DNA of 63,126 nt, the filler included, from Klebsormidium nitens (taxonomy: Eukaryota; Plantae; Klebsormidiophyceae): assembly GCA_000708835.1 (NCBI GenBank). It is 8 parts of 8 records of this genome, joined end to end, with 100 filler letters (N's around TTAATTAATTAA, not from the genome) between each part and the next. Parts side by side here need not be neighbours in the genome. Positions count along the whole stretch, not along the records: positions 5,801 to 22,346 come from DF237990.1; 7 more parts are not named here. One strand, 5' to 3'. The notes under the pieces were generated by a model. It was not told the DNA's origin. It saw nothing but the letters and a program-made list of their open reading frames with translations, and ran no database searches. Made by a program: the position numbers and the translations under genes. Shown piece after piece: positions 5,701 through 30,212 of the stretch (position 1 is the first letter of the stretch; each line of letters starts with the position of its first letter).

Positions 5701-5800
5701 NNNNNNNNNNNNNNNNNNNNNNNNNNNNNNNNNNNNNNNNNNNNTTAATTAATTAANNNNNNNNNNNNNNNNNNNNNNNNNNNNNNNNNNNNNNNNNNNN
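5701..5800. other. Artificial contig linker (N-run with TTAATTAATTAA); identical linkers at 22347-22446, 29827-29926, 37636-37735, 51594-51693, 56897-56996, 59321-59420
   Basis: Each is 100 bp with the same six-frame-stop 12-mer in the middle, so adjacency across them has no biological meaning. The gaps at 14497-14694 and 39845-40632 lack the linker and look like true scaffold gaps. Confidence 0.97.
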
Positions 5801-6024
5801 CAGAGCACAGATAAGCTTGGCTGCATCGAACGGCGAAGCCGAACACAACTTATCCTGAACGGTGACATCAGCTCACAGAAGCCGATCCATCCGGGATATT
5901 ACGCCGTCTTGCAGACAGCCACGCAGTGCGTCGTTAAGACGTAACCACCGCCGTTTCGCTAACCCGCAGGTCAACGAAATCCTGTCGAGAACGAGGTTAG
6001 GCTTAACCAGTCGTAATCGTTACA
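5801..6024 (-). mobile_element. End A of a TGTAACG-terminated mobile element (LTR or TG..CA TIR element)
   Basis: 5911-6024 is the reverse complement of 56784-56896; identity stops exactly at CGTTACA (6024). Confidence 0.8.
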
Positions 6025-6540
6025 CAAATTCAAGCCTCTGGTTCAAGCTGCCTAGGCCATGTGGACCTTTCTTTGTTTTACCGTCAGTTTTGCCCCCCTT
6101 GCCCGCCTTGCCCCCCTTGGCTTTCTTCGGTTGAGGCTCTGGTACCTGATCATGGTGTTCAAAGAGCATGTCTTTCAAGTCCCTCTTTTGCGCTGCGGCT
6201 GCGGCGTCAACTCGCTTGGCTCGCTCTGCTTCCTTGGCATCCAACATTTTCTGAATCCGAGGGCCCTGCCCCCCTTCATTTCTATACTTGTGAGTCATGT
6301 AGCTTGGTCGCGGCGGATGGCTGTTGGAAGTTTTTGGCGGAAAGGAGCGTTGCAAGGACCTTGAAAGGGAGGCGGAGTAGCGTACGTGCGCCGCTCTTGA
6401 AATGCAGCTGCGGTCTCTTGATGCGCTTCAGTTTGATCAGGTACTTAGGCTGCAGCATGAGGCTGCCTCTCAGTGACTAGGTCCAGGTCCTGAAAAATAG
6501 TTTCGTCTTCGTCGTTTCGGGCCGGCTGCGTAGCACTCAT
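6025..6540 (-). pseudogene. Disrupted Lys-rich ORF, divergent from the Plavaka transposase and truncated by the inserted element
   Basis: MSATQPARNDED...QPHAAA*VPDQTEAHQ reads through an in-frame TAA, then shifts frame to KKAKGGKAGKGG and ends at the TGTAACG terminus. Confidence 0.4.
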
Positions 6541-7031
6541 TGCAAGTTCCCAAAAGTTTCGACGGAACGAAACGAGGGAAGTTTGAGATTTTGAATTCGT
6601 ATTTTGACACGTGTGGCATCTAGACCGCTCATCGCTGAATGAAAGTTCCGATGTACGGTCTGCGGGGCGCCGCCGACCCCCGACCGCCGAGGAGCATGGC
6701 GGCCGTCGATGATCGCAAAATCTCGACCGGATGCAATCTCCGGCCGCTCCAGGCTCTTGAATGGCGGCAAAAGTCAAGCACAAGATACGAGAAGAGTCCG
6801 GAGTGAAGGGACAAGTGAGGGGGTGAAGGAACGTACCAAGCTCCGAAGCTGCCGTAGAATCTCTTGAGCTGAGTCCTGGCGCTGTTGTAGGTGGGCGGCC
6901 GTGCCATCTCTCAGAGCTTGTGTCTTCTGAGGAGGGGCGCGCTTCAGACAGTGACTCTTGGGTTCCGATATGATGGGTTTTTAAAGAGCGGTCGGAACGA
7001 GAGCGCTACAAGCTATAGATGGCCAACGCAA

Positions 7032-10000
7032 ATGTCTCTTGCAAAGGAAACCCCTGTGTCTAATCAGGATCTTCTTTGTGAGGGCTGCAACAAGACATTC
7101 GGACATTTTACCAACTTTGATCACCACATTAGTTATCGCACAAGCTGCCGACTGAAGAGAGCTATTAAAAACCTCAAGCGCAGGCGAGAGGCAGGGCTGC
7201 CTGATCCTCAAGCCCCTCCAGTAGAAAGGCGCCCTCTTGTCTTCGACGAAGCAGACCAAGATGACCCCGTAGACTTTGCACCAACTGATCATAACAACCC
7301 CCCTCCAAACGACCAAGGTGCAGATGAACCCACTGAGCCAGTAGTAGAGAACAAAGAATGGGAGTCCACCGAGCAGTTCGTTTCATGGATCAAAAGAGCA
7401 AAGTTGAGCCAATCTCAAACAGACGAGATGCTCAACCTGTTCCGCGACCAGAGAATGGACATGAGGGAGGCGTTGGAGATAGTCCAATCGCATCGAGATG
7501 TGGACAAGTACTTGATGCAACAGATTGTAGGAGAGGTAAGATTTGCAGGCCCTGAGCCTTTCTTCATTGACTGGTTTGATATGAGCTTACCCAGGGCAGG
7601 GAGAGAGTGAACAAGCAACTAGACTTACTTGTTCACAAGATATGGTAGCTTTGCTCTAATTCCAAGTATAAAGCCTCTGCTCTAAAAACTGAAGTCTGGC
7701 TAGTTCGCTGTGTTCTTTGATTGTCAACCTTGAGTAGTTTAAGTTTGGAAATTCTTAAGTGGCCGCCATCTCTTCATGTTCCCTCTCTCTTAGAACGCGA
7801 GGATGATCGACCTGTCGCGACCAGGCTTGGATCCTGGGCCTGTGCTGCTTACGTACAAGCCTCTTCTCGAGGTTGTCAAGAAGATGGCGGCCAATGCCAA
7901 GGCGGTGGCGAAGAAGAATGGGAGAGAGGGCAAGTTTGTGCTCAAGCCGGTCATCCAAAACGTAAAGGTGATGCAAAAGCAGAGGGATGGTACGATGAAG
8001 GAGGTCCTCATCGCAGAATATGACCACCCGTCTACGGGCACATGGTGGCATAAGATGCAGAGAGAGGTGAGCCGCAAGAATCTAAGCAAGCTTCAAGCAG
8101 CTTTCTTCTTGCAATAACAATGGCCGCCTAGTCAACGCCGACAATAGTTGAAGTTGTGGCCGGCTGCAAATTGTCGCTTTCCCTAGCTTGTTGAACAACA
8201 CGTTTCCCAGAGTGTCCAACCGACACCCTAGATGTGAAGCTAAACCAGTCCGTCAATGACTACCTGCAGATCGACGTTGATCCCGACTTCCAAGGCTCGG
8301 ATTATGTGGTGCTACCTATCATTATCTACCTGGACAAGACCACCATGGACGGCCTCCGTCGCGTGTCTGTGTTCCCCATGTACGTCTCTCTCGCCAATTT
8401 CAGCTGGGACTTCTACAACGAGAGAGGCGGTTTGGAGCTCGATGCCTTGCTCCCACAGCCCAAGGCGGATCCCGACTGGCCGCAACCTAACTACAAGCCC
8501 AAGTCGGACGGACACCGCGACCTGAAGCGCCACTTCATCACCAGTTCATTGGCGATCGTCACGGAGGACGCCCGGAAAGCGTCGTGGAAGGGTATCGACT
8601 TCGTGGACCCACATGGGGTCAAGCGGAAGGGAGTCCCGCAGATATTCTGCATCAGCAAAGACCTCGGGGAGGCATCCACCATCTCGAACGTAAAGGTCAA
8701 CTACTGCGACTCCTGCCTCGTCCCCCCAGATGAGATGAACCGACTCGACGAAGCCCTCAGGGGAGATTACCCCCCGCGACTGGAACCGGCGATGCGGGTG
8801 GCCGTTAACGCCATCCTCGACCTCAAAGAAGACCCACACGTGCCCAGGGTCCGGGTTACGGAGGAGACAAGGAAGCACGGGGTGCACCCGCAAATGGTGA
8901 GTGCTTCCTATTCCCTTTGCTCGCGAATGCCGCCCAGAATCCAATGAAGCCCCTATATGGCTTCATAATTGGAGATGGCGCGCTACTGATCTTTCAGCCC
9001 TTTGCCAGCGGCCAAGCTCCAATCCAGTGTTTCAAAGCGACTTAATCAGAAGGTGTGCGCCTTCCTGTACTGTTTCCTGGTGGGAGCGCAAAAGCGATCG
9101 AGATTGCACAGACAAAAGCAACTGTTGTCCATAATCATTGTATTGAAGTTGGACAACAGCATCTTTGAGTCGCGCTTCCTCAAAAATCCTAATCACGCAT
9201 GTTCTGCCTGTGCAGCCATGGTTTTTCAAGTGGAAGTACGGCAAGCTTGCCTGGAATGCTCCTTACCTCAAGATGGTCCCAGACGATCTGCACACTGTGT
9301 ACGGGGGTGTGTTGGGGTCCCACTTCCTCAACATCTTGGAGGCGGTCGCCAACATACACCCGCTTGGCAAGGCCGCCTTCCTGGCCCTCATGAACGTGCG
9401 CCTCCATCAAATTTACCTCCTCTACAACCCAGGGCTGCGGCTCCCAGCGAGCAAGGAGTTTTTCACCGAGCGCTACTCCGTGCCCAACTACGAATGGAAG
9501 GCCGTCATGCAGGTACGTTTGTTTGCATCAAAGTTCTGTGTTTGCAAAATCTTCGTGGTCAACGAGTGGGCGACCAATCCTCTGCATGCCGCCCTCCAAT
9601 CCCAGCTATCAACATTCTGCCCAAAAGCATTTGGTCAGAGTTTGTTGGTGTCAATCAGGCAAATAATCCTAGCCTGCTGCCGCTACAGGTGCTGCCAATC
9701 CTGGTGTCCGGCCTTTTCCGGACGCAGAATGGAGTCGACACCCTCGTGGAGTGGGCAGTGGCTTTTGTTGAGTGGGTTTAAGCGACCTTCTGGCTCGAAA
9801 ACGGCATCCACAATGAGAATACCCTGAGCGAGTCCGACCGGTTGCTCCTCGTCTTTGACGAGAAGTGCACCGCGATCGCGGGGCTACAGGCATCGGCTTG
9901 GAATTTCCGCAAGTATCACGACCTCTCCAAGTTCACCGCCACTATCAGGCGGCTCGGTGCCACCCGGTGGACGTCCACGGAGAGGGGAGAGCACGAGCAC

Positions 10001-11349
10001 CCACAGGGTGAAGATCTGGTGGGCCAGCATGAACGGGCGCAATGTGGAGGAGGCGATGTTTGACTCGTAAGTGAAGAGAGCCAAATCTCAATGCATCTCT
10101 TGCTTTTGTGGGCATCCGTGAGAGCTGGTCGAGCCTTTTGATGCAACTCACAGTGAAAGATTACCTCAAAGTTGTTGCAATGCCATTTGCCATCGTAAAC
10201 CTTGCGGTGGACATGTCGCCACTCAATGTTTCCAGGTGGCTTCGTGCGATTGCCCTCGACAACATCGAGACTCTACGAGCGCAAATCACGGAGGTCGTCC
10301 GGCAGAGGGGCAAGTACGACAGCGCGTTGGTCATGGCCGACAAGGCGAAAGAGAACAAGCTTCCGCTGAGTTACCGCTTCGCAACGCTGTGGTCTAACAT
10401 GCTGGTGGACGTGACTTCGCCTCAGAAGATGATCTTCGACGGTGAGATACTCCGACTAAGTTTGAGTTTCTTTTGACTTGCGCCGACTCTCTTTTATCTA
10501 ACGTTTGAGGTGCTTCAACCGCTCTTATCATCAAAGACCCGATTGATGAGCGCTCTTTTGACAACTTTCTGCCTTCCTTCCAACAGGGCACGTCCAACGA
10601 GGTGCCTTCATGCAACTGCTGCGGTCCCAACCCCTCTTGTCCAAACTCCCCGCCGCGCTGGGCACCTACTTCGGCGTACACGTCGGCAACGTGTCGGGCG
10701 CCGCCCTCCGCCGATTGAACCCCATACGCTACCTCCGCGAGAATAACATCGATCCTCGGGTGAGTAAACCTGCAATCGACACTTTCTTCAAGCAAGCTGT
10801 CAAGCAAGAGACTCAGGCTCAGCCAATGACTTAATGACTTCTTATCAGGTTATTGGTACCGGTATAATAGCGTTTGTGATTCTGCATTTGCAGGTGCACG
10901 TCGTCTCTTCGTGCTACATTGTTCCACACGCGGGCGGCCGCAGAAGGTTGCAAGCGGCGAGAGCTATCCCCAGCTTTCACGGCCGCCCGGTTTTTAGCGA
11001 CGTGGCTGTGACGGGGGAGAACAGCAGAACGGGGGCTAGGGAGACCTGGTACGCTCGAGTTGTGTTGTTCTTCAAAGCTTGGCACAAAGTGTTGAAGTGG
11101 GATGAGGTTGAGCTGAAGCAGGTGTGGAAGCCTGTGGAGCATGAGCTCGTGTTCCTTAGGTGGTTCAGGGTCACGGCCTGGACGGACGATGTGAAGTGCG
11201 ACATTCTACAGTGGGAAGCAACTTCCCGCAGGGAGCCGAGCGTCGTCGTGGAGCCGATAGAGTCGCTCATATCGGTAGAAATGATGCTCCCGAAGAAAGC
11301 GCAGAACAGAAACATGGAACTATGGTTTCGGAACAAGTATTACAGGTAG
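7032..11349 (+). mobile_element. Plavaka-family transposase gene, multi-exon
   Basis: N-terminal C2H2-like CEGCNKTFGHFTNFDHHISYRTSC; GTWWHKMQ; IIIYLDKT..DG..SVFPMYVSLAN; CISKDLGEA...K.NYCDSCLVP; PDDLHTVYGGV; WNFRKYHDL..F...IRRLGA....STERGEHEH; C-terminal WYARVVLFFK. Canonical GT-AG introns, e.g. 7536-7793. Confidence 0.82.
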
Positions 11350-11700
11350 CACATGACAATTTGCAAAAGAAGTTCAGGTCGGATGAAGACATTCGTACAC
11401 TCGACTGCTGTGTAATAATGCATTCAAAGAGTCCCCGGGCCGGATCCATTACCGCGTGCTGCAAATGAGCCATTTCCACCATCCAGCGCATGAATTCCGA
11501 ACATATGTGCAAATTGATACTTATCGGAAACGCTGCGCCATGCAAACGGTCAATCTTTGAACCGGCGTTCGAACTCCGACGGACCTCCATTATTCACAAG
11601 TTTAGGAAGTCAAGCGCGACCGGCCTACTATTTACAACTAACCGCGGCCCGCTACCATTCCGGACGGACGAACCGCGTCTAAACTGATCTACAACCACCC

Positions 11701-13614
11701 CTACTCGCTAGCCCCCCTCCCCCAGTCCGAGGAGCCACTCTTCCAGCGCTCCTTCTCTACCTGGACGGCCGACTCCGTGACGCTGGCCGCCGCACTCCGC
11801 CCAATCGTGACGACGCTGTGACCGAACACCTCATCCAGAGTCGGAGGTGCTCCCTCGCCCTTCGCCCCCCCCTCTACCTCCCCTCCGCCAGTCGCTTCCT
11901 TTGCCTTCCTTGAGGCCCGAACCCGAACCCTAGCCAGCTTGAGCAAGTCCAATGCGCTCCCGTGCAAGATGTCCTTCTCCACCGGCACGCCAGCCGAGTG
12001 CGCCAGCGCGGCGATTGCGACGGATCGGCCAAGCTTCGACTGTGCACCCAGATCGGACAGCGCCTCCCGGGCCAGGTCGGCAGCGACAAAGGTTTCGGCA
12101 GATGGGGCGGATTTGAGGAAGCGGCTCATGGGCATGATGTTGGACAGCACTTTGAAGGTCCACAAGTTGTGGCGCCCCTCGTACCTCCGCTCCAAGCGGT
12201 TGTCGTAGTTGTGCTGCATGACCACGACTTGGTCCGGGACGCCAAACTCGTACCAGAAGCGGCTGATCTCTCCCAACCTCCTGATGGGAACGGGAGCGTT
12301 AGGCACAAACCCTTCGCGGTCCAAGTACCATTGCTCCCACTCCACACCCGGGGTGCACACATCCCCCTCCTCCTTGGGGTCGGGCTTATCCACGTGCTCG
12401 CCCTCCACCGCATCCAACTTCGACTCATCCACCCCATCCCACAAAGTCGCTTCGACCTCTTCCAAAGTGGGCCTCGCCGGCGCCACCCGTTCCGGAACCA
12501 CTCGCTTCCGCTCGCACTCTTCTCCGCGAGGATTGCGAGGCTTGCTAGGCTTTTTCCCACCCCATGCCACCCCGGCCGGTCCGACACTCCTCTGAAACTT
12601 TGCTGCCGCCAGCCGCCGATCCATCTCCTTAAAGTGCTCTTCCGGCGGCTCCCCCCCAACCGGGGCACTCAGCTGCTCGCCCAAAAACCGGACAGCACAT
12701 GCCCGGAACCGATCGGCTGATACCCCGTCCGAGACTGCGGCCAATTGGTCATAGGCCCGCCACGTGGCCTCCAGGGCGTCAACACCACGGGACACCGCCG
12801 ACCTGATCACGGATTGAGCGAGCTGCTCGGGCGAAGCCGCCAATGCAGAGAGGGCTTCCACCATTGCCTTGCCCGGGGCCAGTTCGTTGCTTCGAAGCGG
12901 CCGGTTCTCCGGCTCGTTTGCACGCTAGTCCGCCGCCCCGTAAATCCTTCTCCAGGCCATTGACTCCGCCGACGCCCTCTCCCGCTTTTCCGATGCTTCC
13001 TCAAGCGTCTCCCCAGCATCCCTTTCGTGGTCAACCCCCACGCCTGCCGTCAAAAACTTCGCGCCTAACTTTTCGTGGAACTCATTGATGTCCACGCCGT
13101 CCCCCCCTTCCTCGTGCGGCTGCCAACTGGTCCGGTTCACCTCGCGCAGGATGCGAAACAGTTCGTACGGCTTCTTCTCGAGCCCAAGCACGTACTTCAA
13201 GTGCGTCGTCGCCAAATAGTGACCACCATTCCGCATCACAAACACGGGCAGGCCACGAAGGCAGCGGGGGACCGTTTCCGCCATCCGCTCATGCCGCTCC
13301 CTTTCCTCCACCCCCTCGCTTTCCCACTGCGCCAATTGGTCGGTCCAACAAGTGGGCAGTGCGCCTCCCGCTGCTTCGCCATCTACCGGGGTGCGGCGAG
13401 TACTGCCTCCAGCCGCACCGCCATTCCCCGGGCTGCCGTCACCCGCCGCTGGCGACTCCTGCACCCGCAGAGCATGCTGGGCATAGGCGTCTAGAATGTA
13501 GAGCGTGGCGTCCTCGACCGAGAGTGTGCGGGACGCCACCTTCACAGTTTCCCCGCGGCCGGAGTTCGGAGGATCGCGCAGGCAATCGTGGCCGCGGTTC
13601 TGCTGCCCCCCCAT
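11701..13614 (-). pseudogene. About 640-aa intronless hypothetical gene broken by one in-frame TAG (12925-12927)
   Basis: ORFs 12925-13614 and 11701-12864 share a frame; the 20 codons between the TAG and the next ATG are open (RANEPENRPLRSNELAPGKA). Confidence 0.6.
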
Positions 13615-13651
13615 GAGGAGGCCGGCGATCGAGTCGAGAACTTGAAAGTAG

Positions 13652-13939
13652 CTTAGGGACGTGGGCCCTAAGTACCGAGGCCCGAAAAGGGCGGGATCTT
13701 GACCATTTTGGGTGGTCTGGCAGGGGGGTGAGAGGCTTAGGGACAAGATCGAAGCAACATTCCACCCAGTTTCTCTACTTAGGAACAATGGCGCTGTCAA
13801 CAATGGCCCGGACTAGACTTAGGGACATGGGACCCTGCCACCTCAGGCATTGGCGTCGTTTTCCGGGCCGCCACTTGCCCGAATGGAGCGGAGGAGGCTG
13901 GCACTTGTTAGGGAGGTACAACAGGCTAGACTTAGGGAC
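13652..13939 (+). repeat. Cluster of CTTAGGGAC motifs upstream of the KDZ gene
   Basis: Copies at 13652, 13736, 13778 (CTTAGGAAC), 13818 and 13931; inverted CCCTAAG at 13666. Confidence 0.75.
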
Positions 13940-14149
13940 AAGGCGGCATTCCCAGAAGCAATTCAGAAGCCGCAGCACCCAGGGCGCACAGCAAGAGCGC
14001 AGAAGGACAGCACAAGAAGGGCGCTGCAAGCAGGGGAGCGCAGCGCTGCAAGCAGGGGGGCGCAGCGGTAAGAGAGCGCAGCACTACAAGGGGCCGGAAG
14101 AGCACAGGTGAGCTTTAGGGTCGTAGCTGCTGCATGGAAATTGCTACCT

Positions 14150-14800
14150 TTCAGTTTCAAAGGGCCTGAATGAAAAGGCACTTGGGTACAATGCTGCTGG
14201 GGTGTTTAGGGCTGCTTGAAGACTGCCGCTGGTTGATCAGCACTTTGGCAGGTGTAGCGGGGTTGCTGCGCTTCAGAAGGACCTGCTTTGAAAGGCATTC
14301 GGGTACAATGCTGCTTCTCTGTGGGGTGCTTAGCTTCCGAAGGGCCTAGAGGTCTCTGTGGAGTGCTTGAAGGGATGCTGCTGGTTGATCAGCACTTTGG
14401 TAGGTGTACGGTTGCTGTGCTTCAAAAGGACTGCTTGAAAGCATTTGGGTGTGATCCTTCGGGGCTCGAAGCCTTTAGGTATTGCTGCTTTTCTCTNNNN
14501 NNNNNNNNNNNNNNNNNNNNNNNNNNNNNNNNNNNNNNNNNNNNNNNNNNNNNNNNNNNNNNNNNNNNNNNNNNNNNNNNNNNNNNNNNNNNNNNNNNNN
14601 NNNNNNNNNNNNNNNNNNNNNNNNNNNNNNNNNNNNNNNNNNNNNNNNNNNNNNNNNNNNNNNNNNNNNNNNNNNNNNNNNNNNNNNNNNNNNNGGATGT
14701 ACTAGGGTTTGCAAGCGCTTCAGAAGTGCTGCTTGAAGTCATTTGGGTATGATGCTTCTCTGTGGGGTGCAGGGCTGCTTGAAGGGATGCTGCTTGTTGA
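14150..14800. repeat. Degenerate tandem repeat array spanning a scaffold gap
   Basis: Recurring GCTTGAAGGGATGCTGCTGGTTGATCAGCACTTTGG, GGGTACAATGCTGCT and TCTCTGTGGGGTGC on both sides of 14497-14694. Confidence 0.75.
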
Positions 14801-14835
14801 CAGCACATGCTGAACCTACTGTCAATCCTGTGCAG

Positions 14836-17800
14836 ATGGCAGAGGACAAGACGGGCTGGCGGTGCCCGGTCCCTGACGATCCTGTCGACTCTGACATCCT
14901 CAAGGATCACGCTACCATCATCAAGAGGTGCCACGCCTGTCACAACGAGTGCCTTCGCTACTCTGCAACAGGGAACGTCACCATCTCAGGAACAAAGTTC
15001 CATGGCACCACCCCAGGAGCCCGGGAGTCGGTTGTGGGCTTCTTCGTCTGCCAGACCTGCCCCCCTCATCCGAAGTCGTGGCGTCACGGGAGGCCCATGC
15101 CCTACCGCCGGCTGTGGTGCAACAAGTGCCTGAAGTTCCTCATCCCCGGGGCGTTCAGTTTGGCCTTCAACCACAAGCCGGATGGGTCCTGGACACAGAA
15201 TCCAATCAGCTGTTGGCACTGCAGCACGTCGGGGATTAACCCAGAGATGCGGGACTGTCTGAACAGCTGCCCCAAGACCCTCTACAATGACATCAAAGCC
15301 CAAAAACCCAAACGCAAGCCGGTGACAGCCCCCTCAACCAGGCCTAGCAAACAACCCCGCACCTCTGAGCCCCCCATCTTGGCCCCTTCCCTCTCGGTTG
15401 TAGACCCCGCAGCCCGCCTGCAGGAGAACTATCAGCAGCTGGCAGCAACCGTCAAGGAGCGGGGGCTTTTCACCAGCAAGGCCCTGCCAGAGGACTTCCT
15501 CTTCTTCCTGCCTGACTTTGTGTTCAAGGGCAACGACTTCGAGCTCGTCGAACCAAGCCTTCAGAAGAAGCGTTTCCCCAAAACTGTCGTCCTGGGGTGT
15601 GCAAAAACAACCAATGGGAACGGGGTCCTCATGTGCACCTCCTGCTCGGAGCCCCTCTGTGTTCACGTCAGCGTGCTGGAACGGCTCGTGGACGTGACCA
15701 AGCTCAAAGCCCCTGTTAGCGAGAGAAGGCTGCCACCCAAGGAAGAGCCGCCGGCGGAAGAGCCACCTGAACAGAAGCCAAAAGCCAAGAAACAGCAGCT
15801 GTCTAAACTGGGTTTCAAGGCCACTGAGGACTACTGGGCGGTGCAGTTGGACAAGGAGAAGCGCTGGGTCCTCTGCGGGAAGACGGAGGACGGTACCTGG
15901 GCCTGTCAGAAATGCAAAGGAGAAGGAGCGTGCAAGCATGCCTGCGAGGTCACGGGCCTCCCCTACCTGCCTCCGGTAGTCACGAAGAGGTGAGCCTTTC
16001 TTACATGTTATTATAAGGTTGCCTTCATCATCCATCATAGAAGAAGTGCTCAATGGTGACCCCGCGGTTGGGCACGTGCGTCAGATGGTACGTGGGGCGC
16101 TCAAGGTACACGTTCATTCTGGCTTCCCATGTGGCCTGGTCACTGATGACGGGCACCCCAAACTTGTTGTACTTGAAGCAGCCTGAGTGCTTAGTGCCAT
16201 CAGTGGATATGAAGCTGTCTGGGTTGAATTTTAGCTGCACTTGGGGCCGATTGCCAGCATCCTGGAAAAGCTCCATGATTCTTTTTGATTCGCATGAATA
16301 GTTGGCTGCAGAGTGCTGATTCTCGTCGCATTCCAAGTGGACTGTGTGAGTGTAGACATCCGCAAAGATGTCTGCCCTCCGAAAAGAGCACCCACCCTGA
16401 AGCCTCTTGTCAAAGGTGACTTCCTCTGTGTCTGGGAGAATGCCCGCGGCCTGGATGTAATCCAGGAAGTGCTTTTCCTTGATCTTGTAGTTCTTGGAGA
16501 CCTTTTCGTTGGGGAAGAGGTACACGAAACAGCGCAGGCAATAGCCCTTGTAGCGCTTGTTCACTACCGTGCCGCAATTGTTGTGGCACGTTTTGCTCAC
16601 AACATTTACCATTTCCTCCAACTTGCAGGTACTCACGAGACCCCTCGTTGGAATGGGCCGACATCCCCCCAGAAACTCCGCCCCCGGTCAAACCCAAGTC
16701 CAGGGAGACGACTGTGTGCGACGCCTGCCGGCCGGCACATGCTGACGGCATCCCGACGCACCAGTTCCATGGCTGCAGCCACCAGGGCAGGCGCGTGCAC
16801 GTTTGCACTGAAGCTTGTGCAATTTTCCCCTGTTCCCCCATCCCCAAAGCCCAGCTGAGCGACGAGGGAGGGCCTGTGAACCGACTGATGCAGCGGGAGA
16901 TGCAAGAGGCCGCTGCAAAGGGCATCTTCAGTGAGTCCTCCCCAACCTCCAACGTGGCGCCCTGTGGGGCCAGGTGGTTGCGGGAAAACCCCAAAACTGC
17001 CCCGTTCTACACTGAGGCCGACACTTCGAAGGTGGCCCTCTGCGTCTGGCGGTGCAACGCAAGTTGTTGCGTTTTGCGGCCGCACATTGACGAGATCTAC
17101 TTCCAGCCCCCGTCTGAACTGCGTGTGAGCCACAAGGTCCTGGCACAGGAGACGAATCTGCTCTACAAGGGCAAGACCTTCAAGCTGCTCGCTGAACGTG
17201 CTGAGGAAGAGGGTCTTCTTCGCCCTGGTGAGCAAAGCAAGTCAAATTGCACCCGTCTGAAAGCTCTGAAGCCTTGTTCTCACCACTCTTCTCTCGTGCA
17301 AAAGAGCTGTGAAGCTTCTCCCTTTCATGTAATAGAGGCCTGTGCAATTCCAGGAGCATTGCTGACAACATCTGTCACATCTCGAATGGCACGGCCTGCG
17401 CACATACACGGATGACGAGCGTTTTTCACAAACTATCTCAGGTTGAGAGATGTTAGTTTAGCCGCCCTAGGGAGACCTTCCGAAATCTCTGTGTATCCGC
17501 GCATGCGCCTCTGCAGTTGAGTACTATATGCATCAATGCTTCAGATTCTCCACAGACTGTCATCTTTTTGCAGGACGGGAGCCGCCTCTGGCCCGAGACG
17601 CCTTGACGCGCTGGTTCCAAGGCTACCTTCGCACAATCCTGGCAACCGCACCCCGCCCTGAGCTTCCCCCACAGCCAGGCCCGAATCAATGGACGCCTGC
17701 CCTGCGGGAGCTGCTGCGAGAGAGCCCAGTGCTTCTGCTGGAACCCGCTGACCCTCAGACGCTTGTGGGTCGGACCTTCTGGAAGCTGTTCTCGGCGGAC

Positions 17801-20767
17801 CAGCAGTGGTGGCGGGGGCGTGTGACCGGCTATTCTTTGACTTCTGACAAAGGAGAGCTCTTCCCGCATTACAAGGTGCGTTCCAGGATTGCAAGCATTG
17901 ATGCCCTGCTTTTGCAAGTCAGGATTCAACTCCGAGACCTGCTCTGCCTGCAAGGCCTCCGGGTGACAATGCGCAGACAGTACGATGAAATCCGAAACAC
18001 TTTCCTTTAGCAGGTCGAGTATCCCGGGGACGAACAGCGCGAGGATATGACCTGGCGCGACCTCTGCAACCGGCTGAATCCACTGGAGGTAAGGACACAT
18101 CCAAGGGAAGCAAGGGAACGGCGTCAGAAGCTTTGCATCAATGGCTGGGTCCTCTCTGGTATTGATTGCATCTTTTACTTAGCAAGGGCCGGCATTAGAC
18201 GCTAAGTCAAGCGGTCCCAGGGTGTCCCTCAAGCGCACCCTTCCTTGCAGGAGGGTGACGATCAGGATTGGGGCCCGCATCCACGTGAGTGGTCCCCCCC
18301 GGGCTGGCGAGACGGCGCCTCAAGGGTCGAGACAACGGCACCCTCTGCCGCGAACCAAGACGTTCTCGCAGACCACCATCAGAAGCCCTGGCCCACCTGC
18401 CCCATCTGCAAGGAGTTCCCAGAGGCCCTCTACATCGACTGCAGGGAGGCGCACATGAAGCACATATACAAAGACCCCCATACTGGGGCCTACGTCAACG
18501 TCCTGCCCATCATCTACCCCTTTGCCAACAGGGTCGCAGCACTGGACATCAACCCCTACAGAGCGGATTGCTGCTGTCACAGGCCGAAGCAGACAAGCGA
18601 CAACAGCTCCATTATGGGTGCTCCAAAGGTCGTAGCAGGGGCGCAGTTGCGGAAGCTCCTGAAGCAGTGGAGCGGACACATTCCGGTGTCGATGAAGTAC
18701 GAGCGGGGGAAGAAGGAAGCAGTGCCCATCCCTGTCCCTGATGCCCAGCCTAAGCCTCTAAGTGTGGCGGAACGCGAGGTGCGTTCTCGTTCCTTCTATG
18801 ACTCTGTTAAATTCTTGTGGCAGGCACACTTTCTGTCCCTCTTTCTTCAATTGACTGTAAAGCTTAGACTCTCTTACACACTTGTCCCATCTTAGCACTT
18901 CTCGTACACTTCTGGTCCCCTTTGCTTCATTGACTGCAAAGCTAAGACCCTTGTCCTAAGCAGCACAGAACTGACGAGAGTCATGACCTGAACTCTGCAG
19001 AAGCTCAGCAACCTGGCCCCATGCGTCTACAAACTCGTCGACTACATCGACCGCAACCACGCAAGCCTGTGCCCCAATCCCGCGTACCGAGCCCTGTTCT
19101 ACCACCTGGGCTTCCTGCACAGCGACGCCGAGCTCCTCAGGCACGGTGCTCAGGATACGGTCGTGCAGATCCTGATGACTCTCAAGCTGTCCTCAGGAGC
19201 TCCGCACATAGAGATTGAGTGCGAGTGGGACCAGGCCCTGCATACTTACGCCCCGTGCCTGCAGGCCGTCCTGCTCAGCGGCAAGGACGGCGATCAGAGG
19301 CGCAAAGGGTTCCGGAAGTCTGGGGACACGTGGAAGTCCGGGGAGGTTTGGAAGGGCACCGGCTACAAGGTAAAAGCCCAGCTGCTGTACGCCCTCGCCC
19401 CGCTGCTCCAGCACCTGCTTCGCCTCTCATTCTGGGAGACGGACTACACTGCGAATCACCAAGCGTCCGCGCTGCTGTGCGAGGCCCTGGGGGTGGAGAG
19501 GGGCGAGATCTGCTGGGGGTGTCTCCCTGGGGATCGCGGGTTGCAGCGGGTGGGGAAGGACGTCTACTTCGACAGGGTGGAGGAGCTTGTTGACGAGATC
19601 AGGGAGCTGATGTCGGGGCCGTGCCGGGGCACCTCGGACGGGATCCTTGCAGGGGAGGCCTACGTTGCCAACCAGCACCGGCTCAGCTCCAGCAATGTCT
19701 ACCACCGGGTATTCCGCGACGTCCCGCAATACGCAGGGAAGGATAGAGCTAACGGGAAATGCGTGGGTGGTGAGAGGGTCGTCAAGTGCAACGAGGAGAC
19801 TGGCGAGACGACCAGCAATGGCTGCCCAGAGCTGGTCTCAGACGAGGTGCCAGTGAAGGGGGTTCGGCGGCAGGTACGATACAGTGCGCTTTGCCGGTGC
19901 ATTGCAGTGCACGCTCTTGCATGGGAGTCCACAGCTGCCTTTTGCTTCAGCTTCCAGGTGCGTTCATTCATGGTGTAAAGGCACTATCATCAATTGCTTT
20001 TCACATTCAAAGGGCTTTTGCCGCTGTTATCTGTTGTCTCTTTTGACAAAGCACAGCAACTGATAATCTTGTCATTTACCCCTTGCAGAAGGGGGACAGA
20101 AGTGACACGGATGGGGTGATGTTAGTCACGTGCAAGCATTGCTTCGTCTACTATTACCACGTCCTTCTCCGCCACGAGTCTCTGCGTGACGTCTTCACCT
20201 TCCTCGTCACCCGCTTCCAGCACCGGCCTCCCAATTTTATCATCTACGACAACGCTTGTGAATTTGCTCGCTACTGCAGAGCGGTGAGGCATCTAATTTG
20301 ACTTTGTCTCCCGAACCTGTGTCTGTGCAGCCACATCTTTGGACCCTGGTATCAAAAAACAAGTGCTTTCTCTCTCAGCTCACCCAGGGGCTGCTGTAGC
20401 AATACAATGTGTTCAGCCAAGGTTGCTAGCAATCCTTTAAAGCTTCTTTCTTTTGCAGCGCTGGCCAGAGTTCTTTGCTCACACCATGTTCTTGACCGAC
20501 AACTTTCACGGTGTCACCCACAAGTGCTCTGACGAGTTCAAGTACCATGTACACCTTCTGGACAAGGGCCGCGAGTTCCAGGGACTCCCCAATACGTCCG
20601 TCCCCGAGCAGATCAACAGTCTCATGAAGCGCTTTGACAGCACACAAGCTGCCTCCACCATCACCAACGCCATGCTGGTGTACGACTACTTCATCTACCG
20701 GCACAACATGAAGCTGCATGCAGAGTGGTTGGCAAAGCGCTGGGCACAAGGATCAATAGCCGTCTAG
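14836..20767 (+). mobile_element. KDZ (Kyakuja-Dileera-Zisupton) transposase gene, copy 1, multi-exon, with Cys clusters, SWIM finger and Tudor-like domain
   Basis: KDZ core DGVMLVTCKHC..YYHVLLRHESLRD.F..L.TRF..P.FIIYDNACEFARYC / FF.HTMFLTDNFHG.THKC...NTSVPEQINS; CPICKEFPEALYID; SWIM-like CQKCKGEGACKH. Phase-compatible GT-AG introns at 15990-16628, 17876-18013, 18089-18250. Confidence 0.88.
16028..16636 (-). CDS. NCLDV-type PD-(D/E)XK-like endonuclease, 5'-truncated, nested antisense in a KDZ intron
   Basis: YKGYCLRCFVYLFP..KVSKNYKIKE; GGCSFRRADIF...HTVHLECDENQH...SCESKRIMELFQD.G.RP.V.LKFNPDSF; starts with a remnant Cys repeat CKLEEMVNVVSKTC (EsV-1-7-like). Confidence 0.82.
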   Translation of the reverse strand: MSTCKLEEMVNVVSKTCHNNCGTVVNKRYKGYCLRCFVYLFPNEKVSKNYKIKEKHFLDYIQAAGILPDTEEVTFDKRLQGGCSFRRADIFADVYTHTVHLECDENQHSAANYSCESKRIMELFQDAGNRPQVQLKFNPDSFISTDGTKHSGCFKYNKFGVPVISDQATWEARMNVYLERPTYHLTHVPNRGVTIEHFFYDG

Positions 20768-20883
20768 GTGAGTAAAATCATATTGCTGTGTCTTGAGACG
20801 TCATAGTAGAGCGTATTCCCTGTTTGCTGGAGTGTCAACGTTGCTCTTATTATGTCACCTCATCAGATTGCATCATCATTTGT

Positions 20884-22149
20884 CTACAGGGAGGCCAGAT
20901 GAGTCTGCATCTCCTGCCGCCACTCGTCCAGCTTCTTCTGAGAGAAGGGGACCTTCTGTTTCTCGCCCCCCTGCTCCTCTGGGGGCAGATACCTCTTGCG
21001 CTCTTTGGCCCAGTAGAATAGGGCTAGGTAGTCTGGGATCGTAGGCTGACGCCCCTCGTCGAGCAAGTAATCAAACAGACGCTGATCGAAGAGCCCCAAA
21101 CCCTTGTCACGTGCCTCTCTTCCGGCCTTCTGCAATTCGAGAAGGCTCTGTAAGCGTGCAGCATTCTTTTCACGTTTTCCAGCCCATACTCGCTGCTTGG
21201 CTCTCGAGCTATCATCCCAAGTTGCCCTCAGGTCATTGATAAGCCACTCGATCCCAGGGATTGGCGGGCGTGTCCCAGCCACCCTTGGATCGTGGTCAGA
21301 TGGTGCTCTCTGCACAACCACGTCCAATACAGGGATGTTATGCTCGAAAGTAGCCTTGCCCACACGCATGTGCATCCTGTAATCGATGCTTGTCTGGCGC
21401 GGCCGTCCGCCCTGCTCCTTTGGGAGATACCTGAGCCGAAATTGCAAATGATCGCCGTCTCTATCCTGATATATGAACCCCAGCGGTATGCCACACAGCA
21501 CCTTGTGCGCATCTCTAGGCAGGATGTTTTTCCGGGAGTCGATCATCATGGTCACAGTCTTGCCGCATACATGGGTGGTAAGCTCCACCACTGGCTTCGT
21601 GCTCTGCCCGTGCCCAACATAGATCTTCGTATCAATGTTCTTTGAGGTTTTGATCCTGTTATTGAAGCGCCGCATGGCATCGCCGCCCGTCACAAAGATC
21701 CTGCCCAGTCCTCTCTGTGTCAGCTTGTCGTCGAGTGCAGCAATGACCGCGTTGAGTGAAGGCCTTAATGATTCAATCAGCTGCGCTTCGCCCTCATCCA
21801 GGGCGGCTGTGCCTCCTAGGATATGACTCAAGGCTCGCAGCATCAACCTCTCAATCACTCCTTCGTGCTTCTTTGCAAATTCTGAACCACCAAAGACCTT
21901 TGAGAAGGTGTCCACCAATCCTTGATACCATGCTGCCGCCGCCGTGGGGCCCCGTGTCTGTTCGAGATACCTAGCAATGACCTTGCGCCTGATGTCATCT
22001 ATGTTGAATCCTTTCTCCTTGCGCTTTGACTTGATGAGTTCCAGAAAGGTCACAATCCCTTCCAAGTTTAAGAAAGGGCCATCTGAGTAGGCTGCTTGGA
22101 AAGGGGCTTTCAAAGATGGGTTTCCCAGGTTGACAACCTGCACTTCAAT
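20884..22149 (-). CDS. Pol-beta-superfamily nucleotidyltransferase, NCLDV poly(A)-polymerase-like; 5' end cut by an insertion
   Basis: RIFVTGGDAMRRFNNRIKTSKNIDTKIY (hGG..x.D.D motif, first Asp is Asn), PVLDVVV, and C-terminal GKREKNAARLQSL. Intronless. Confidence 0.65.
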   Translation of the reverse strand: MEVQVVNLGNPSLKAPFQAAYSDGPFLNLEGIVTFLELIKSKRKEKGFNIDDIRRKVIARYLEQTRGPTAAAAWYQGLVDTFSKVFGGSEFAKKHEGVIERLMLRALSHILGGTAALDEGEAQLIESLRPSLNAVIAALDDKLTQRGLGRIFVTGGDAMRRFNNRIKTSKNIDTKIYVGHGQSTKPVVELTTHVCGKTVTMMIDSRKNILPRDAHKVLCGIPLGFIYQDRDGDHLQFRLRYLPKEQGGRPRQTSIDYRMHMRVGKATFEHNIPVLDVVVQRAPSDHDPRVAGTRPPIPGIEWLINDLRATWDDSSRAKQRVWAGKREKNAARLQSLLELQKAGREARDKGLGLFDQRLFDYLLDEGRQPTIPDYLALFYWAKERKRYLPPEEQGGEKQKVPFSQKKLDEWRQEMQTHLASL

Positions 22150-22346
22150 TGTAACGGCACGACTGCGCACCGACTTCTGGCTGCGCGCCAAACTCGCGGC
22201 CGCGCATCGTCCGTTATTATACGCTATCGACTTATTTGATATATCGAATCACTACACGACACGTGTCTGGGTTACTGCTTCACCGCGTGACCGTCCGATA
22301 AGACCCACGTGCACCGCGCGCCTGGAAACCGTCCGATAAGCTTTTT
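22150..22346 (-). mobile_element. End B of the TGTAACG-terminated element
   Basis: 22150-22307 is the reverse complement of 56997-57145; identity ends at TGTAACG; internal direct repeat ACCGTCCGATAAG. Confidence 0.8.
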
Positions 22347-25300
22347 NNNNNNNNNNNNNNNNNNNNNNNNNNNNNNNNNNNNNNNNNNNNTTAATTAATT
22401 AANNNNNNNNNNNNNNNNNNNNNNNNNNNNNNNNNNNNNNNNNNNNGGGGCCTTCCTACGCTGCTCCGGCCGCGGGTGCGCGCGCTCTGCTTCCTCCGGC
22501 ACGCCGCTGGTCCGGCATGGCAGGTGTAAAACGCCATTGAAGCAAGAAGCTCGAAACTCTTTTCTTCCTCACGATGACAGGCCCCGTTTTACTACGATGT
22601 CCCTAGCATGCTAGTACCAAATTTGTCACGAGTTGAAGTCTAGTTTTCTACAAACAAGTCCTTTCCAGTCCATCACCTTAAAGTCTGTCATCACTGACCG
22701 TCGATGATCGATACATGCATTTTCGATCGTACGGTACAGCTCCAGCGCTGTCCAAGTACTAGAACAGCCGGTCGGAACCTACCAGGTACCCTGCGGGTCA
22801 GATTGCCTAGGAGTAAGTGCTACATCAGATTAAACGTAGCTAGCGCCACGTCATGTGCCATATGGAATAGGTTCCGAAATTCACCATGCAGTTTGCTGTT
22901 GAGTGAGTCCCAATGAAACTTGTATCGGATCGGGCAATCACCTATCTTTCGGAGGCCGATGGAGGTCGGCCCGAAAATGGAATTTTGCACGTCACACTGA
23001 CCGGATATCGAGGTAGAACCTCAAAAAAACCTTTGTTCGCGAGTCGCGCCGTAGCTGTCTCGTGCACCCTTACGAGCACTAGAAGAGTGCAGTGCAGCTA
23101 TCACTTCTCTCTTAGAGTCACAAAGAACCGACCCCGTTCCCAGCACACCCGCTCCAACACCGCCCCCCTTTTGCGCCGTTGCCTATCCAACCGTCACCGG
23201 CGCTCCTGACACCGGCCTTGCTCAAAGAGCTGGGCGCCCCTCCGCTGCAGTATGCGTCTCCGCCCGCACCTTTCAAGAGCTCACCTCCCTTTGTTCCCCT
23301 ATCCTTGCCCACTTGGCCTTGTGCAATGCCGCGCCCACCGGCTCGGCGAGAATTGGTTGCACCTGGCAACCCGCTGTCCACATCACTGCAGCCGCCCATG
23401 CTCGTGTCCTTGCCCCTTGCAGCATGCGCACGTGAGCTCTCGTCATCGGAGTCCACTAGCTCGATGACGATATGTGGTGCTGGAATCCAACAGAAGTGCC
23501 GTCAATTGATGGTGGTAAGAAGCAAAATGGATGCCACAACAACTTGCATAGGCTGTTTAGATTTTTACGAGCTCCAAGCACGTCACAGGTTTTTTGAGAG
23601 GTGTGAAAGTAACGACCCTCAGGATGATCTGCAATTCCAACAGCTGAGATCCTGTTGCATACGACAAGTATCACCTGCCACCGAGTACGACCTCACTGAA
23701 ATCTATGCATCATGTTACTGAAATTTACAAATATTGTTATGTGTGCACAAGAGACAAGGGGACGCACCGTGCAAGGGAGGGTGCGAGGTGGAGGCTGTGC
23801 GGAACTGGCTGCGGTATTGGCTGCGTGCCCTAGATCAGCATGCTACGTGCCCAGCAGCCCCTCGAGCCGCTGCATGTCCAGCAGCTGCTGCCTCTGCACA
23901 GCCAACCAACTTTCTAGTCAGTTGCAACCCTTCTTGCAACATTCCTTGCATGTGAGATCCCACAAAGCTCACACCGTTTCCAAAAGATTTTCAAGCCACA
24001 ACTGCGCACTCTACATGGCAAGCAGAGTAGGTGCTTCACGATCCGGGATGGTCCTCACACCATTATGAAACAAGCCAGCAAAGAGTGCACACCGTGAATT
24101 TCATCTTGCCAGATTCTCCCTTGACATAGATTGTGACGTACGCTTGAATTTTGGTGCGCAAGTTGACCGATCGGCTGCTCTCTGTCTCCGATGCTCTGCA
24201 AATGGGGGAGATGCGTTCGTGGTTTAGAGCAAACAACGGAGATGCCGTATGCACCAAGATGTCAACTTCATAAAGATGGCAAACAGCGCACAGCAGGCAG
24301 CAGACGACAGTTCCTTGAAAAGGTCTCGTGTGCCTGGCAGGGGACTCCGTTGCACGTTAAATGCTCATTGTTGGAAGCCCAATGAGGTAAGGTGCAACCA
24401 GATTGTTGCGCATGGGGACTTGTGAATGGAGCAGAAGGCAATGAGGACGGGATGAGCGCACGCATTCTGCTGACTTTTGAAGGAGCTTTCGGGGCCCTAT
24501 TCCGGTTCGAGCCATCACCTTGACGTTGTATTTCGGCAGCCTGCTGTTTATCGGGTACTCTGGATACAGGGAGTGCACATTGCAAGAGATTGAGACTGGT
24601 TTTTTGGCGTGTGCATATGGGCGTAGACTGCGCTCCCATGCGAGGCGGTTTTAGTGGCTCCATTTGAAGGGTTGTCGCCTGAACTTCAAGCGTAACACTT
24701 TTCAGCTTCAAATCTAAAAGTGCGATGGATGCATCATTGTGCAATACATGTTTCACCCCTGCTTAGCGAAAGCGCCGAAAGGGGAGCGAAGAGATTGAGG
24801 TACAATGTTTAAGAAAGGATCTTGGAGATCCGCACTAGAATTAAGTTGTTCATAAAAGGATGCGGGCTCAGGAAATCAGAATGTAAAGCTAACCTTTCCA
24901 TTTGTCGAAAGGCGGGGAGAGCGTGCGGTCTCAAAGGTTCCGGCCGCAATGGTGTGAGTGTGAGTGGTAAGGCTGCGACAAGCGGTAGAGGGGTGACATG
25001 CAGCCGAGATGCGTCGGGCGGAAGTGGGCTTTCAAGGGGGCAGCATTGCAAAAGAGGGCGTCGTTAGTGTAGCACAGTCGAACAGGGATTTGAGAAAGGC
25101 AAGGATGGCTCTGTTTCTTTGCGGAGCTGATCCAACGAAAAACGGAGGCGGGGGGTTACTTTTGCGAGAGGCTTGGTGACACCGCTCAAAGCAGTGACAA
25201 AACTCATTGCAGTGCTATGCTTGAGCATAGATCATGGATTGCATGCGATGAAACAGCAAAGCAGCTCGAAAAGCAGCTCTAGTAGGAAGTTTCCTTTTAA

Positions 25301-28300: not shown

Positions 28301-30212
28301 CTGTCATCTCTTTGGATCTAGTCTCGCCACTTGACGTCATATGGACCGTGGGGTCGGGGCCGTCCGGCGGAAAGGTGAAGGGCGGTATGCAGTCTTGCCC
28401 GCATGCACTGCCGAGCCGCCATTGCGTTGCTTGCGTTTGTCCTTGCCTCGTCCTTTGCCAAGTTTGTGTTCTAACGTTGAGAGATACAAATAGGCGCTGC
28501 GCTCTGCTTTGCTACCTACGAATAGCTGACCGGTAGAAATTTCTCGTATTGGTCACATCAAAGTCAAGACGTGTACAACAAGATATCTGGATGCTTAGTT
28601 TCATTGAACATATGATATTTTACGTACCATATATGCGGCAGAGGCGAACTTTGACTCCGTGGACCGGCGGCCGTCAGTTCAACTTTCGGTCAATCCGCAC
28701 CGTCGTTCGGAGTTGTGGTGGTTGCAGTCTCGATTTGAGTTGGCTAGAAGATAGAACTAGCAACTTCGGCATCATGCATACACTCTCGTCATCAAAGCAT
28801 GTACATTCCGAAAATTCCGAGAGAGCAACTATCGGTATTCTAATTGAAACTCTCTAACAATGCTGTAGCGGGTGACTAATCGCTGAGTACCCTAATTCTA
28901 GACATAATTTGCATCCATTTCAGAGAGCTGCATACTCTTCGTTGATTTTTGCGGGATCCTTTTAACGACGACAGCGGCTGAATCATCCCGTTTTCCGTTT
29001 CAGCTTGAAAAGCTTTTCATTCTGCACGAGCAGCGTTGTGCTCTTAAAAACAACATCAAAGTCCAACGCCAGCTAGGCGGACTAGCGGAACTTCAAATCA
29101 AAGCCCTCACAAGCGACTTCGTTCGAAGGTATGATTCAGGCCGGCATGTAACAAGCAGGTTCAGCCTGCCCTTCTTTCTTTTCTGAATTCCCTTATCAAA
29201 AGGCAGAAGGCCAACGAATATACAAAGAATTAGCTGTTGATGTGACATGTGACGTAACAAGCCGTGATCTCTAGAAGGCCAAGTCTAAGATCTTACACTT
29301 GCGTTGAAGAAGCAAAAACCTTGAGGCTCACTCACTACCGAAAAGAGCAGTACATGGAGGAACTCGTGTTTCCGTTATTATAATAGTCAGAAAAACTGGT
29401 AGTGAGCTCTGCAAGTATTGCTTCTATGTGAGAAAGGCACTCTATTTTGGCGCCCCAATTTGGCGAGTCCATGATAATCGCCGGCAGTCAATTCTTGGTT
29501 GACGGCACAATTTTCCTCTGTGTCGAAAATAGAAAATAAAAGAGACTTGACCACGCCAAGCAGCCAACGAAATGATCTGAGCCAGCCATGGCGTTACCTT
29601 TCGACAAGTTCATGGAGGAAATGCTTTTTTGAAGTTAACGGATCCTTTAGCAAAACGCTCCGGACTTTAGCGATCTCTATAAAGATCGAGGAGTCCCTTT
29701 ATACAAGCCTGTTGAGATATGGGCATTTAGGGACCGAATCTCTGGGTGATTCTAGGTTTTTTGGATCACGACGTCGACGGTAATTCGACGGTAAGTAGAA
29801 GTTACGGTTACACGGTTAAATGCGCGNNNNNNNNNNNNNNNNNNNNNNNNNNNNNNNNNNNNNNNNNNNNTTAATTAATTAANNNNNNNNNNNNNNNNNN
29901 NNNNNNNNNNNNNNNNNNNNNNNNNNCTGTTTGTCTCGATTCGTTACTTCACATGACTGCTAGCTGGAGTGGTATGGGACACTCCCCTGTGCAATACTTC
30001 TCGGTAGTATCGCACTTGTCCGGTTAGCTTTGCATGGGCCCCATGCTATATTCCGTTGCCTGCTAATCGATAGTTGACTTGTCTGTAGCTCCACGCTGAG
30101 TTACGCTGACAGTTAGCTGTGGGTTAGTATAACTCTGAGCCATACGGGAGTGGGAACTAGGAGTGGTGTTTATTGTAAACTGCTAGTGGTCCCAACGTTC
30201 CGGTGGTCTTCC

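What the first reader, a model, noticed from the sequence alone, without database searches (positions are those of the whole stretch)
15990..16628. Giant-virus endonuclease captured as an antisense intron of a KDZ transposase
Seen: exon ...GTC ACG AAG AG|GTGAGC (donor 15990) joins in frame to TTGCAG|G TAC TCA CGA (acceptor 16628), giving VTKRYSRDPSLEW. About 600 of the 639 intron bases are the antisense NCLDV endonuclease ORF. The pyrimidine tract and AG are the reverse complement of its codons TCKLEE, and the viral gene is truncated at the exon boundary. Inference: viral DNA became an intron inside a transposon, so the transposon can move viral genes while staying functional. This is a concrete route for virus-transposon-host gene flow.
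Basis: partly seen in the sequence, partly recalled or inferred. Interest (0 to 1): 0.8.

Follow-up and report, generated by a model that had tools for sequence, protein, structure and literature searches.

The report
Viral nuclease lodged in transposon intron
In the alga Klebsormidium nitens, a giant-virus-type nuclease gene that has lost its front part lies backwards inside a predicted intron of a KDZ transposase gene; it likely landed in an intron that was already there rather than creating it, and likely rides along when the transposon is copied.

Summary
The anatomy is confirmed. The GT-AG intron at 15990-16628 is the one in the published K. nitens gene model GAQ92530.1 (1,453 aa, Pfam KDZ). 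600 of its 639 bases are an antisense, 5'-truncated nuclease gene (194 codons) of a giant-virus family.

The claim that viral DNA became the intron is weakened. Gene calls on contigs of the K. subtile-type orthologue (60% identical) break at the same codon, and their intron end shows no likeness to the nuclease. The nuclease is 76% identical to resident Klebsormidium paralogues and at most 49% to viral contigs, so the direct donor was probably a copy already in the alga. The acceptor TTGCAG is both the antisense of the Cys-Lys codons and this gene's usual acceptor, so its origin cannot be assigned.

A diverged sister copy carries decayed remains of the same insert, so the insert has travelled with copies. 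The window's nuclease has no indels while the sister's has several. That leaves a functional nested nuclease, like the mirusvirus shintrons, as a minority reading. Splicing of this copy and the element's ends were not shown.

The parts
14836..15989 (+). KDZ transposase gene, exon before the intron (residues 110-494 of GAQ92530.1; the K. subtile transcript protein starts near this Met)
15990..16628 (+). 639-nt phase-2 GT-AG intron (predicted; in the published gene model; same position in the K. subtile-type orthologue)
15990..16027 (+). 38 nt at the intron 5' end outside the nuclease reading frame; host-type donor GTGAGC; likely the old intron's 5' end
   Evidence: origin inferred
16028..16612 (-). 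Antisense ORF, 194 aa plus stop: giant-virus-type Vsr-like nuclease domain; the family's invariant D81, E94, D96, E97 and near-invariant H100 are kept; no N-terminal repeats; no basic C-terminal tail as in the paralogues
16613..16627 (-). Codons C-K-L-E-E, the stump of the last EsV-1-7 repeat; their reverse complement is the pyrimidine tract and TTGCA of the acceptor
16629..17227 (+). KDZ exon after the intron
17574..20767 (+). Six further KDZ exons (17574-17875, 18014-18088, 18251-18778, 19001-19873, 20089-20283, 20459-20764 plus TAG), holding the Pfam KDZ core

Best explanation
A giant-virus-type nuclease gene lacking its N-terminal repeats lies antisense in a GT-AG intron of an intact KDZ transposase gene, and it was likely copied from a Klebsormidium-resident paralogue into an intron that already existed, where it likely rides as a passenger that splicing would remove. 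Steps: (1) inferred from the tree: the intron was gained once in the KDZ lineage leading to the K. nitens and K. subtile-type elements; (2) inferred: a fragment of a resident nuclease gene later replaced or filled most of that intron, probably by break repair, joined at the TTGCA that the antisense Cys-Lys codons share with the gene's usual acceptor, so splice signals and the transposase frame survived; (3) shown at protein level for one sister: the insert is shared with a diverged copy, so it was inherited when the element was copied; (4) inferred: the nuclease is under weak or no selection and is decaying.
For: Same intron position in the orthologue: K. subtile transcript proteins P0046/P0047 (60% identical over 1,389 columns) read LTRR|YTRD, while contig gene calls of that element stop at TRR (P0038, P0051) and restart at RYTRD (P0026, P0044); they also break at the window's introns 2, 3 and 7. 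The 20 residues read through from the subtile-type intron end show no likeness to the window's intron end (score 21; shuffled mean 20.6; 93 of 200 shuffles as high). Nine more distant homologues run straight through the site and lie outside the intron-bearing branch (96/96). All 13 Klebsormidium-type nuclease copies in the tree form one group (100/99) among IMG/VR sequences; the window copy is sister to P0001/P0024 (94/77) with a longer end branch (0.25 against 0.065 and 0.083) and is 146 of 192 identical to P0024, against 49% at best in viral contigs. The P0024 side of that split (about 0.12) is shorter than the KDZ branches since the subtile split (about 0.3). Private changes are not significantly depleted at conserved columns (6 of 66 against 17 of 120, p=0.36) and include P80A and R128K at near-invariant sites. 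An open frame is expected 44% of the time at 5% neutral divergence. Sister P0041 matches the intron's 5' part (score 69; 0 of 200 shuffles as high).
Against: The DNA of the subtile-type intron was not seen; only about 60 nt of it are known, as a translation, and a neutral intron that old would have lost any likeness. The age argument assumes similar rates in two different genes. The sister P0041 differs by at least 15-21% at the DNA level and has 6 length changes in about 177 nt of intron, whereas the window ORF has no gap against P0001 or P0024 over 192 columns; this asymmetry is unlikely under equal neutral decay (p about 0.002-0.008 for 3-4 changes; blocks placed by eye from a protein string, and the intact copy was the one noticed). 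Against the majority of the other copies, the window's differences overall avoid conserved columns (12 of 101 against 29 of 85, p=0.0003).
Confidence: 0.55

Rival explanations
1. The antisense nuclease is a working nested gene kept by selection in this KDZ lineage. It would be made from its own ATG inside the intron and would cut DNA, either as transposon cargo or as a homing enzyme that spreads the intron to empty sites, like the shintrons of mirusviruses.
For: ATG inside the intron; 194 open codons ending where viral homologues end (85 of 86 loci within 5 residues); invariant acidic residues kept; no gap against P0001/P0024 while the sister's remnant has several; best fold matches are Vsr (Z 6.9, rmsd 3.3, 107 aligned) and the homing endonuclease I-Bth0305I domain (Z 6.7, rmsd 4.4, 95 aligned), tied and middling; relatives without this intron exist.
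Against: The N-terminal repeats (likely the DNA-binding part; inference) and the basic tail of the paralogues are lost; P80A and R128K at columns 99-100% conserved in viral rows; longer end branch; the intronless relatives are only 28-41% identical in protein, too far for homing by recombination (established knowledge); the sister's copy is decayed; its promoter would have to lie in exon 2 on the other strand.
Confidence: 0.2
2. One reading: the intron was created when the nuclease fragment entered an uninterrupted exon in the ancestor of the K. nitens and subtile-type elements and supplied the acceptor; the subtile-type intron is its eroded descendant.
For: The intron is a single gain on one KDZ branch; the acceptor is the reverse complement of homologous Cys-Lys codons; the window nuclease's end branch (0.25) is close to the KDZ branch since the subtile split (about 0.29).
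Against: It needs the fragment to stay open and 76% identical to P0024 while the KDZ proteins fell to 60% identity, which requires long selection on it; in the nuclease frame the subtile-type acceptor gives a stop where the Cys codon is (worked out by hand from P0044); 38 nt at the donor end are not nuclease-coding; TTGCAG ends 4 of the other 6 introns.
Confidence: 0.12
3. The insertion killed this copy: the intron is only a gene-finder prediction, is not spliced, and the locus is a silent relic.
For: The join in GAQ92530.1 is an annotation whose basis was not seen; the protein's 90% cluster has 1 member; CpG is depleted in the exon and intron (o/e 0.59 and 0.57).
Against: All 8 exons are open with GT-AG ends and the core motifs are intact; the orthologous K. 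subtile transcript has the same join; contigs of related copies join across the equivalents of introns 2, 5, 6 and 7; the insert is shared with a diverged sister, so the lineage outlived it.
Confidence: 0.1

Closest known systems
Shintrons, spliceosomal homing introns of mirusviruses (PMC12768974; section 9 and passages read)
   Same: A nuclease gene, there including 16 VSR-like and 15 PD-(D/E)XK cases among 334, nested in an intron with canonical spliceosomal ends and no group I/II signature.
   Different: Here the host gene is a cellular DNA transposon's transposase; the nuclease is truncated and abuts the acceptor; one site only; homing is not shown (nor is it shown directly in that paper). 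The orientation of shintron nucleases was not given in what I read; its supplements were not opened.
Giant KDZ transposons with nested insertions and cargo genes (Ectocarpus, PMC12477816, passages; fungal TET/JBP cargo, PMC12730594, passages)
   Same: KDZ elements carry unrelated nested DNA fixed among copies and extra genes; an EsV-1-7 domain was acquired by an Ectocarpus Mariner transposase.
   Different: Here the passenger is a giant-virus-type nuclease that fills an intron of the transposase gene itself, antisense and flush with the acceptor.
NCLDV inserts in Klebsormidium (PMC5294986 and PMC11244446, passages)
   Same: Giant-virus genes in the K. nitens (K. flaccidum) genome are on record.
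   Different: Those passages concern viral regions and core genes, not a viral-type gene inside a transposase intron.
EsV-1-7-repeat NCLDV endonucleases (Pfam PF19114 plus a Vsr-like domain; e.g. Pithovirus LCPAC304 A0A481Z7X3)
   Same: Same catalytic domain (Foldseek E=5e-16, 38% identity).
   Different: The repeats are cut off in the window copy.

Membership tests
KDZ transposons | KDZ transposase domain | tested here: met
   PF18758 33.8 bits, cut-off 26.6, on P0023
KDZ transposons | Intact acidic core motifs (their catalytic role is recalled, not from a call) | tested here: met
   Four core motifs present at 1292, 1339, 1365 and 1396 and shared with P0046
KDZ transposons | Terminal inverted repeats and target-site duplication | tested here: inconclusive
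   No convincing pair on the 16.5-kb scaffold; no sister DNA to define ends
KDZ transposons | Dispersed copies | tested here: inconclusive
   Diverged relatives exist (P0025 87%, P0041, run contigs 80-90%) but no near-identical copy was seen
Spliceosomal intron | GT-AG ends restoring the frame | tested here: met
Spliceosomal intron | Joined form in a transcript of the orthologue | tested here: met
   K. subtile TRINITY proteins P0046/P0047 against contig gene calls P0038, P0051, P0026, P0044
Spliceosomal intron | Joined form in RNA of this copy | tested here: inconclusive
   8 of 24 listed runs laid; none covers the junction
NCLDV EsV-1-7-repeat endonucleases | Groups with giant-virus sequences | tested here: met
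   Tree of 88 rows; Atlas top clusters 80-100% viral; BFVD; only 6 loci, all MAG contigs, in the prokaryote collection, 5 in the tree and scattered among viral rows
NCLDV EsV-1-7-repeat endonucleases | N-terminal repeat array | tested here: not met
   Only the stump CKLEE remains; 73 of 75 viral loci have more than 40 aa upstream
Vsr-like / EDxHD nucleases | Vsr-like fold | tested here: inconclusive
   Best Z 6.9 (1cw0), 6.7 (3r3p), 6.0 (3hrl), under the tool's Z 8 caution; Foldseek on PDB gave nothing at E<=0.001
Shintrons | Nuclease gene inside a canonical spliceosomal intron, no group I/II signature | tested here: met
   Rfam scan of 15800-16800 gave 2 chance-level hits, neither an intron family
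Shintrons | Located in a mirusvirus genome | tested here: not met
   Host gene is an algal KDZ transposase
Shintrons | Site-specific cleavage and homing | not testable with these tools
   Needs an enzyme assay and alleles

The most novel reading that the evidence does not exclude
A shintron-like element outside viruses: a giant-virus-derived Vsr-like nuclease, trimmed to its catalytic domain and transcribed antisense from within a spliceosomal intron of a cellular DNA transposon, is kept by selection and cuts empty sites so that the intron spreads among KDZ copies, its own Cys-Lys codons doubling as the splice acceptor.
Probability: 0.08. Interest if true: 0.85.

Novelty: new variant of a known kind. 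Interest (0 to 1): 0.42.

Why it matters
As most likely read, it is a clear small example of how virus-derived DNA already in an algal genome can enter a transposon without breaking it: an intron absorbs 600 bases, and antisense Cys-Lys codons happen to spell the host acceptor. That is cargo capture by a KDZ element, a known theme with an unusual placement. It would matter much more if the nuclease proved selected and site-specific, because nuclease-bearing spliceosomal introns were described, in the papers found here, only in mirusviruses, and K. nitens is a culturable organism in which homing could be tested.

Tried and rejected
No whole genome is held for the window, so sister loci could not be read as DNA. 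No RNA holder was listed; 8 of the 24 listed runs (contigs, RNA status guessed) were laid and none covers 15942-16562 or joins 15989 to 16629; this blank is not used as evidence. One X2 contig of a related copy shows 30 loose letters that begin at the equivalent of 16629; its other 143 letters were not shown, so whether it is spliced is unknown. The one metagenome scan, with a degenerate exon-2 motif, gave 2 stretches, both chance matches. Viral-contig scans with exon 2, its alignment, P0046, the single nuclease ORF and the downstream ORF confirmed no relative, so no KDZ of this family was seen on a viral contig. Two protein searches limited to long proteins returned only P0023. The exact look-up of the nuclease used a start one codon too late and says nothing. 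Pfam and PDB sequence searches gave no family for the nuclease. Considered and rejected: a bacterial origin (6 MAG loci only); a group I/II intron; that P0023 is a second copy (its 16,546-bp contig equals window 5801-22346); that the viral core genes elsewhere in the window are neighbours (they lie beyond linker gaps); that the repeat at 22150 is the KDZ end (run contigs show different left flanks, so it starts another element). Earlier-findings look-ups returned nothing. Rows left out of the nuclease tree: L088, P0013, P0015, P0021 (short) and exact duplicates; of the KDZ tree: P0026, P0038, P0042, P0045 (near copies), and P0031, P0041 were not included.

Full report
Setting. The window is from Klebsormidium nitens. 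Protein P0023 (GAQ92530.1, KFL_010410030, 1,453 aa) matches the window's exons and its contig is 16,546 bp, the length of window 5801-22346. The window is several pieces joined by N-run linkers, so only that stretch is the neighbourhood.

Observation. Walking P0023 along the DNA from residue 110 gives 8 exons and 7 GT-AG introns; the first is 15990-16628, 639 nt, phase 2, with the join VVTKR|YSRD. The protein scores above the Pfam KDZ cut-off. The minus strand has ATG at 16612, 194 codons and a stop at 16030-16028. Five codons before the ATG (C-K-L-E-E) align with the end of the EsV-1-7 repeat of paralogues, which reads C-K then Met five residues on. So 600 of 639 intron bases are nuclease-derived and 38 at the donor end are not in its frame.

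What the nuclease is. A protein search returned 22 hits of 36 candidates: five named K. nitens proteins and several unnamed JGI proteins at 62-79%, and metagenome proteins at 41-49%. In IMG/VR, 414 of 602 pattern-matching stretches encode a relative, at best 49% identical, many from giant-virus MAGs. The prokaryote collection gave 6 loci, all MAG contigs. In a tree of 88 rows, the 13 Klebsormidium-type copies form one group (100/99) among viral rows, and the window copy is sister to P0001 and P0024 (94/77). It is 146 of 192 identical to P0024 with no gap. The model (pLDDT 75.6) matches giant-virus proteins named endonuclease and, more weakly, Vsr and I-Bth0305I (Z 6.9 and 6.7). Of 75 viral loci not at a contig edge, 73 have more than 40 residues upstream of the homologous Met; 85 of 86 end within 5 residues of the window's last residue. 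The family is therefore of giant-virus type, the window copy is 5'-truncated but has a whole catalytic domain, and its direct source was probably a copy resident in the alga or one of its integrated viruses (inference).

Is the intron older than the insert? A search with the junction region gave 17 proteins. Two K. subtile transcript proteins are 60% identical to P0023 over 1,389 columns and read LTRR|YTRD. Contig gene calls of that same element end at TRR (P0038, P0051) and resume at RYTRD (P0026, P0044), and others break at the window's introns 2, 3 and 7. So the orthologue has an intron at the same codon and its transcript has the joined form. The read-through of that intron's last 20 codons has no likeness to the window's intron end (93 of 200 shuffles score as high). 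Nine more distant homologues run through the site; several end in read-through near the intron 2 position, which suggests genomic DNA. The tree needs one change of state (96/96), most simply a gain in the branch to the K. nitens and subtile-type elements. The P0024 side of the nuclease split is about 0.12 changes per site and the KDZ branches since the subtile split about 0.3; if rates are comparable, the insert is younger than the intron. The subtile-type intron's DNA was not seen, so this is an inference.

The acceptor. C-TGC-AAG reverse-complements to CTTGCAG. Five of the other six introns of this gene end in TGCAG and four in TTGCAG. The acceptor may be nuclease-derived, host-derived, or the microhomology at which the two were joined; the sequence cannot tell.

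Has it travelled, and is it alive? P0041, from an unnamed JGI record, has a frameshifted version of the upstream exon, the same donor position and then the antisense nuclease 3' end (score 69; 0 of 200 shuffles). Its exon part differs by at least 41 of 192 bases but keeps 6 of 6 C/H/W/Y residues, and its intron blocks differ by at least 16 of 108 bases. The insert is thus shared by two diverged copies. The window nuclease has 23 private changes in 186 columns, 6 of 66 at highly conserved columns against 17 of 120 elsewhere (p=0.36), among them P80A and R128K; a neutral ORF stays open 44% of the time at 5% divergence and 9% at 15%. This fits decay. Against it, P0041's remnant has 6 length changes in 177 nt while the window ORF has none against P0001 or P0024, and its differences from the majority avoid conserved columns overall (p=0.0003). 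Selection on the nested ORF is therefore not excluded.

Expression. Contigs of related copies, 80-90% alike, in runs X2, X3 and X6 join across the equivalents of introns 2, 5, 6 and 7, which supports the gene structure for the family. Nothing laid bears on intron 1 of this copy.

Comparison. Nuclease-bearing spliceosomal introns are described in mirusviruses (PMC12768974, section 9 read). Giant KDZ elements with nested insertions and cargo are described in Ectocarpus (PMC12477816, passages) and fungi (PMC12730594, passages). Gene exchange between a transposon and a giant virus is proposed for a TET gene in Chlamydomonas (10.64898/2026.10.09.758095, passages). NCLDV inserts in Klebsormidium are on record (PMC5294986 and PMC11244446, passages). 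Eight searches of the held library listed no paper on this locus or on a viral nuclease in a KDZ intron; the library is incomplete and no supplements were opened.

Verdict. The feature is real and neatly described. The likeliest account is capture of a truncated, resident, virus-derived nuclease in an existing intron (0.55), followed by a kept nested nuclease (0.2), de novo intron origin (0.12) and a dead, unspliced copy (0.1). It is a new variant of known cargo capture; interest 0.42.

Noticed in passing
window 5701-5800, 22347-22446, 29827-29926, 37636-37735, 51594-51693, 56897-56996, 59321-59420: N-run linkers with a short fixed spacer join separate pieces; the window is not one contiguous locus.
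   Followed up: yes
window 20887-22149 (-): Long uninterrupted ORF ending 120 bp after the KDZ stop, tail to tail; nearest Atlas clusters are Nucleocytoviricota (score 0.94, recognition below threshold). It may be a second viral-type cargo gene or part of a viral insert; its 5' end runs into the repeat at 22150.
   Followed up: partly
window 22150-22307, 56997-57145 (reverse), 5911-6024, 56784-56896: Repeats at piece ends; one begins TGTAACG and the other ends CGTTACA, like the two ends of an LTR (inferred). Run contigs show different left flanks at 22150.
   Followed up: partly
window 6891-11346 (+): Plavaka-type transposase gene on the same scaffold (PF18759 at 8195-8944).
   Followed up: no
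window 11704-13812 (-): Two ORFs without Pfam match, head to head with the KDZ gene across a region of short direct repeats (13700-14800); possible accessory genes.
   Followed up: no
window 1954-2589 (-), 46489-48765 (+), 50648-51337 (-): Giant-virus-type genes on other pieces: VLTF3, an AAA ATPase, mRNA capping enzyme, DUF7197. CpG is not depleted in the 46-49 kb genes (o/e about 1.0).
   Followed up: no
window 57385-62798 (-): Further KDZ-like pieces: weak KDZ hit at 57385-58371 and weak CxC4 hit at 60110-61906, both under the Pfam cut-offs.
   Followed up: no
P0001-P0011, P0013, P0021, P0024: The nuclease family has many Klebsormidium-type copies forming one group, several with a basic C-terminal tail that the viral rows lack; the family may itself be mobile in the algal genome.
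   Followed up: partly
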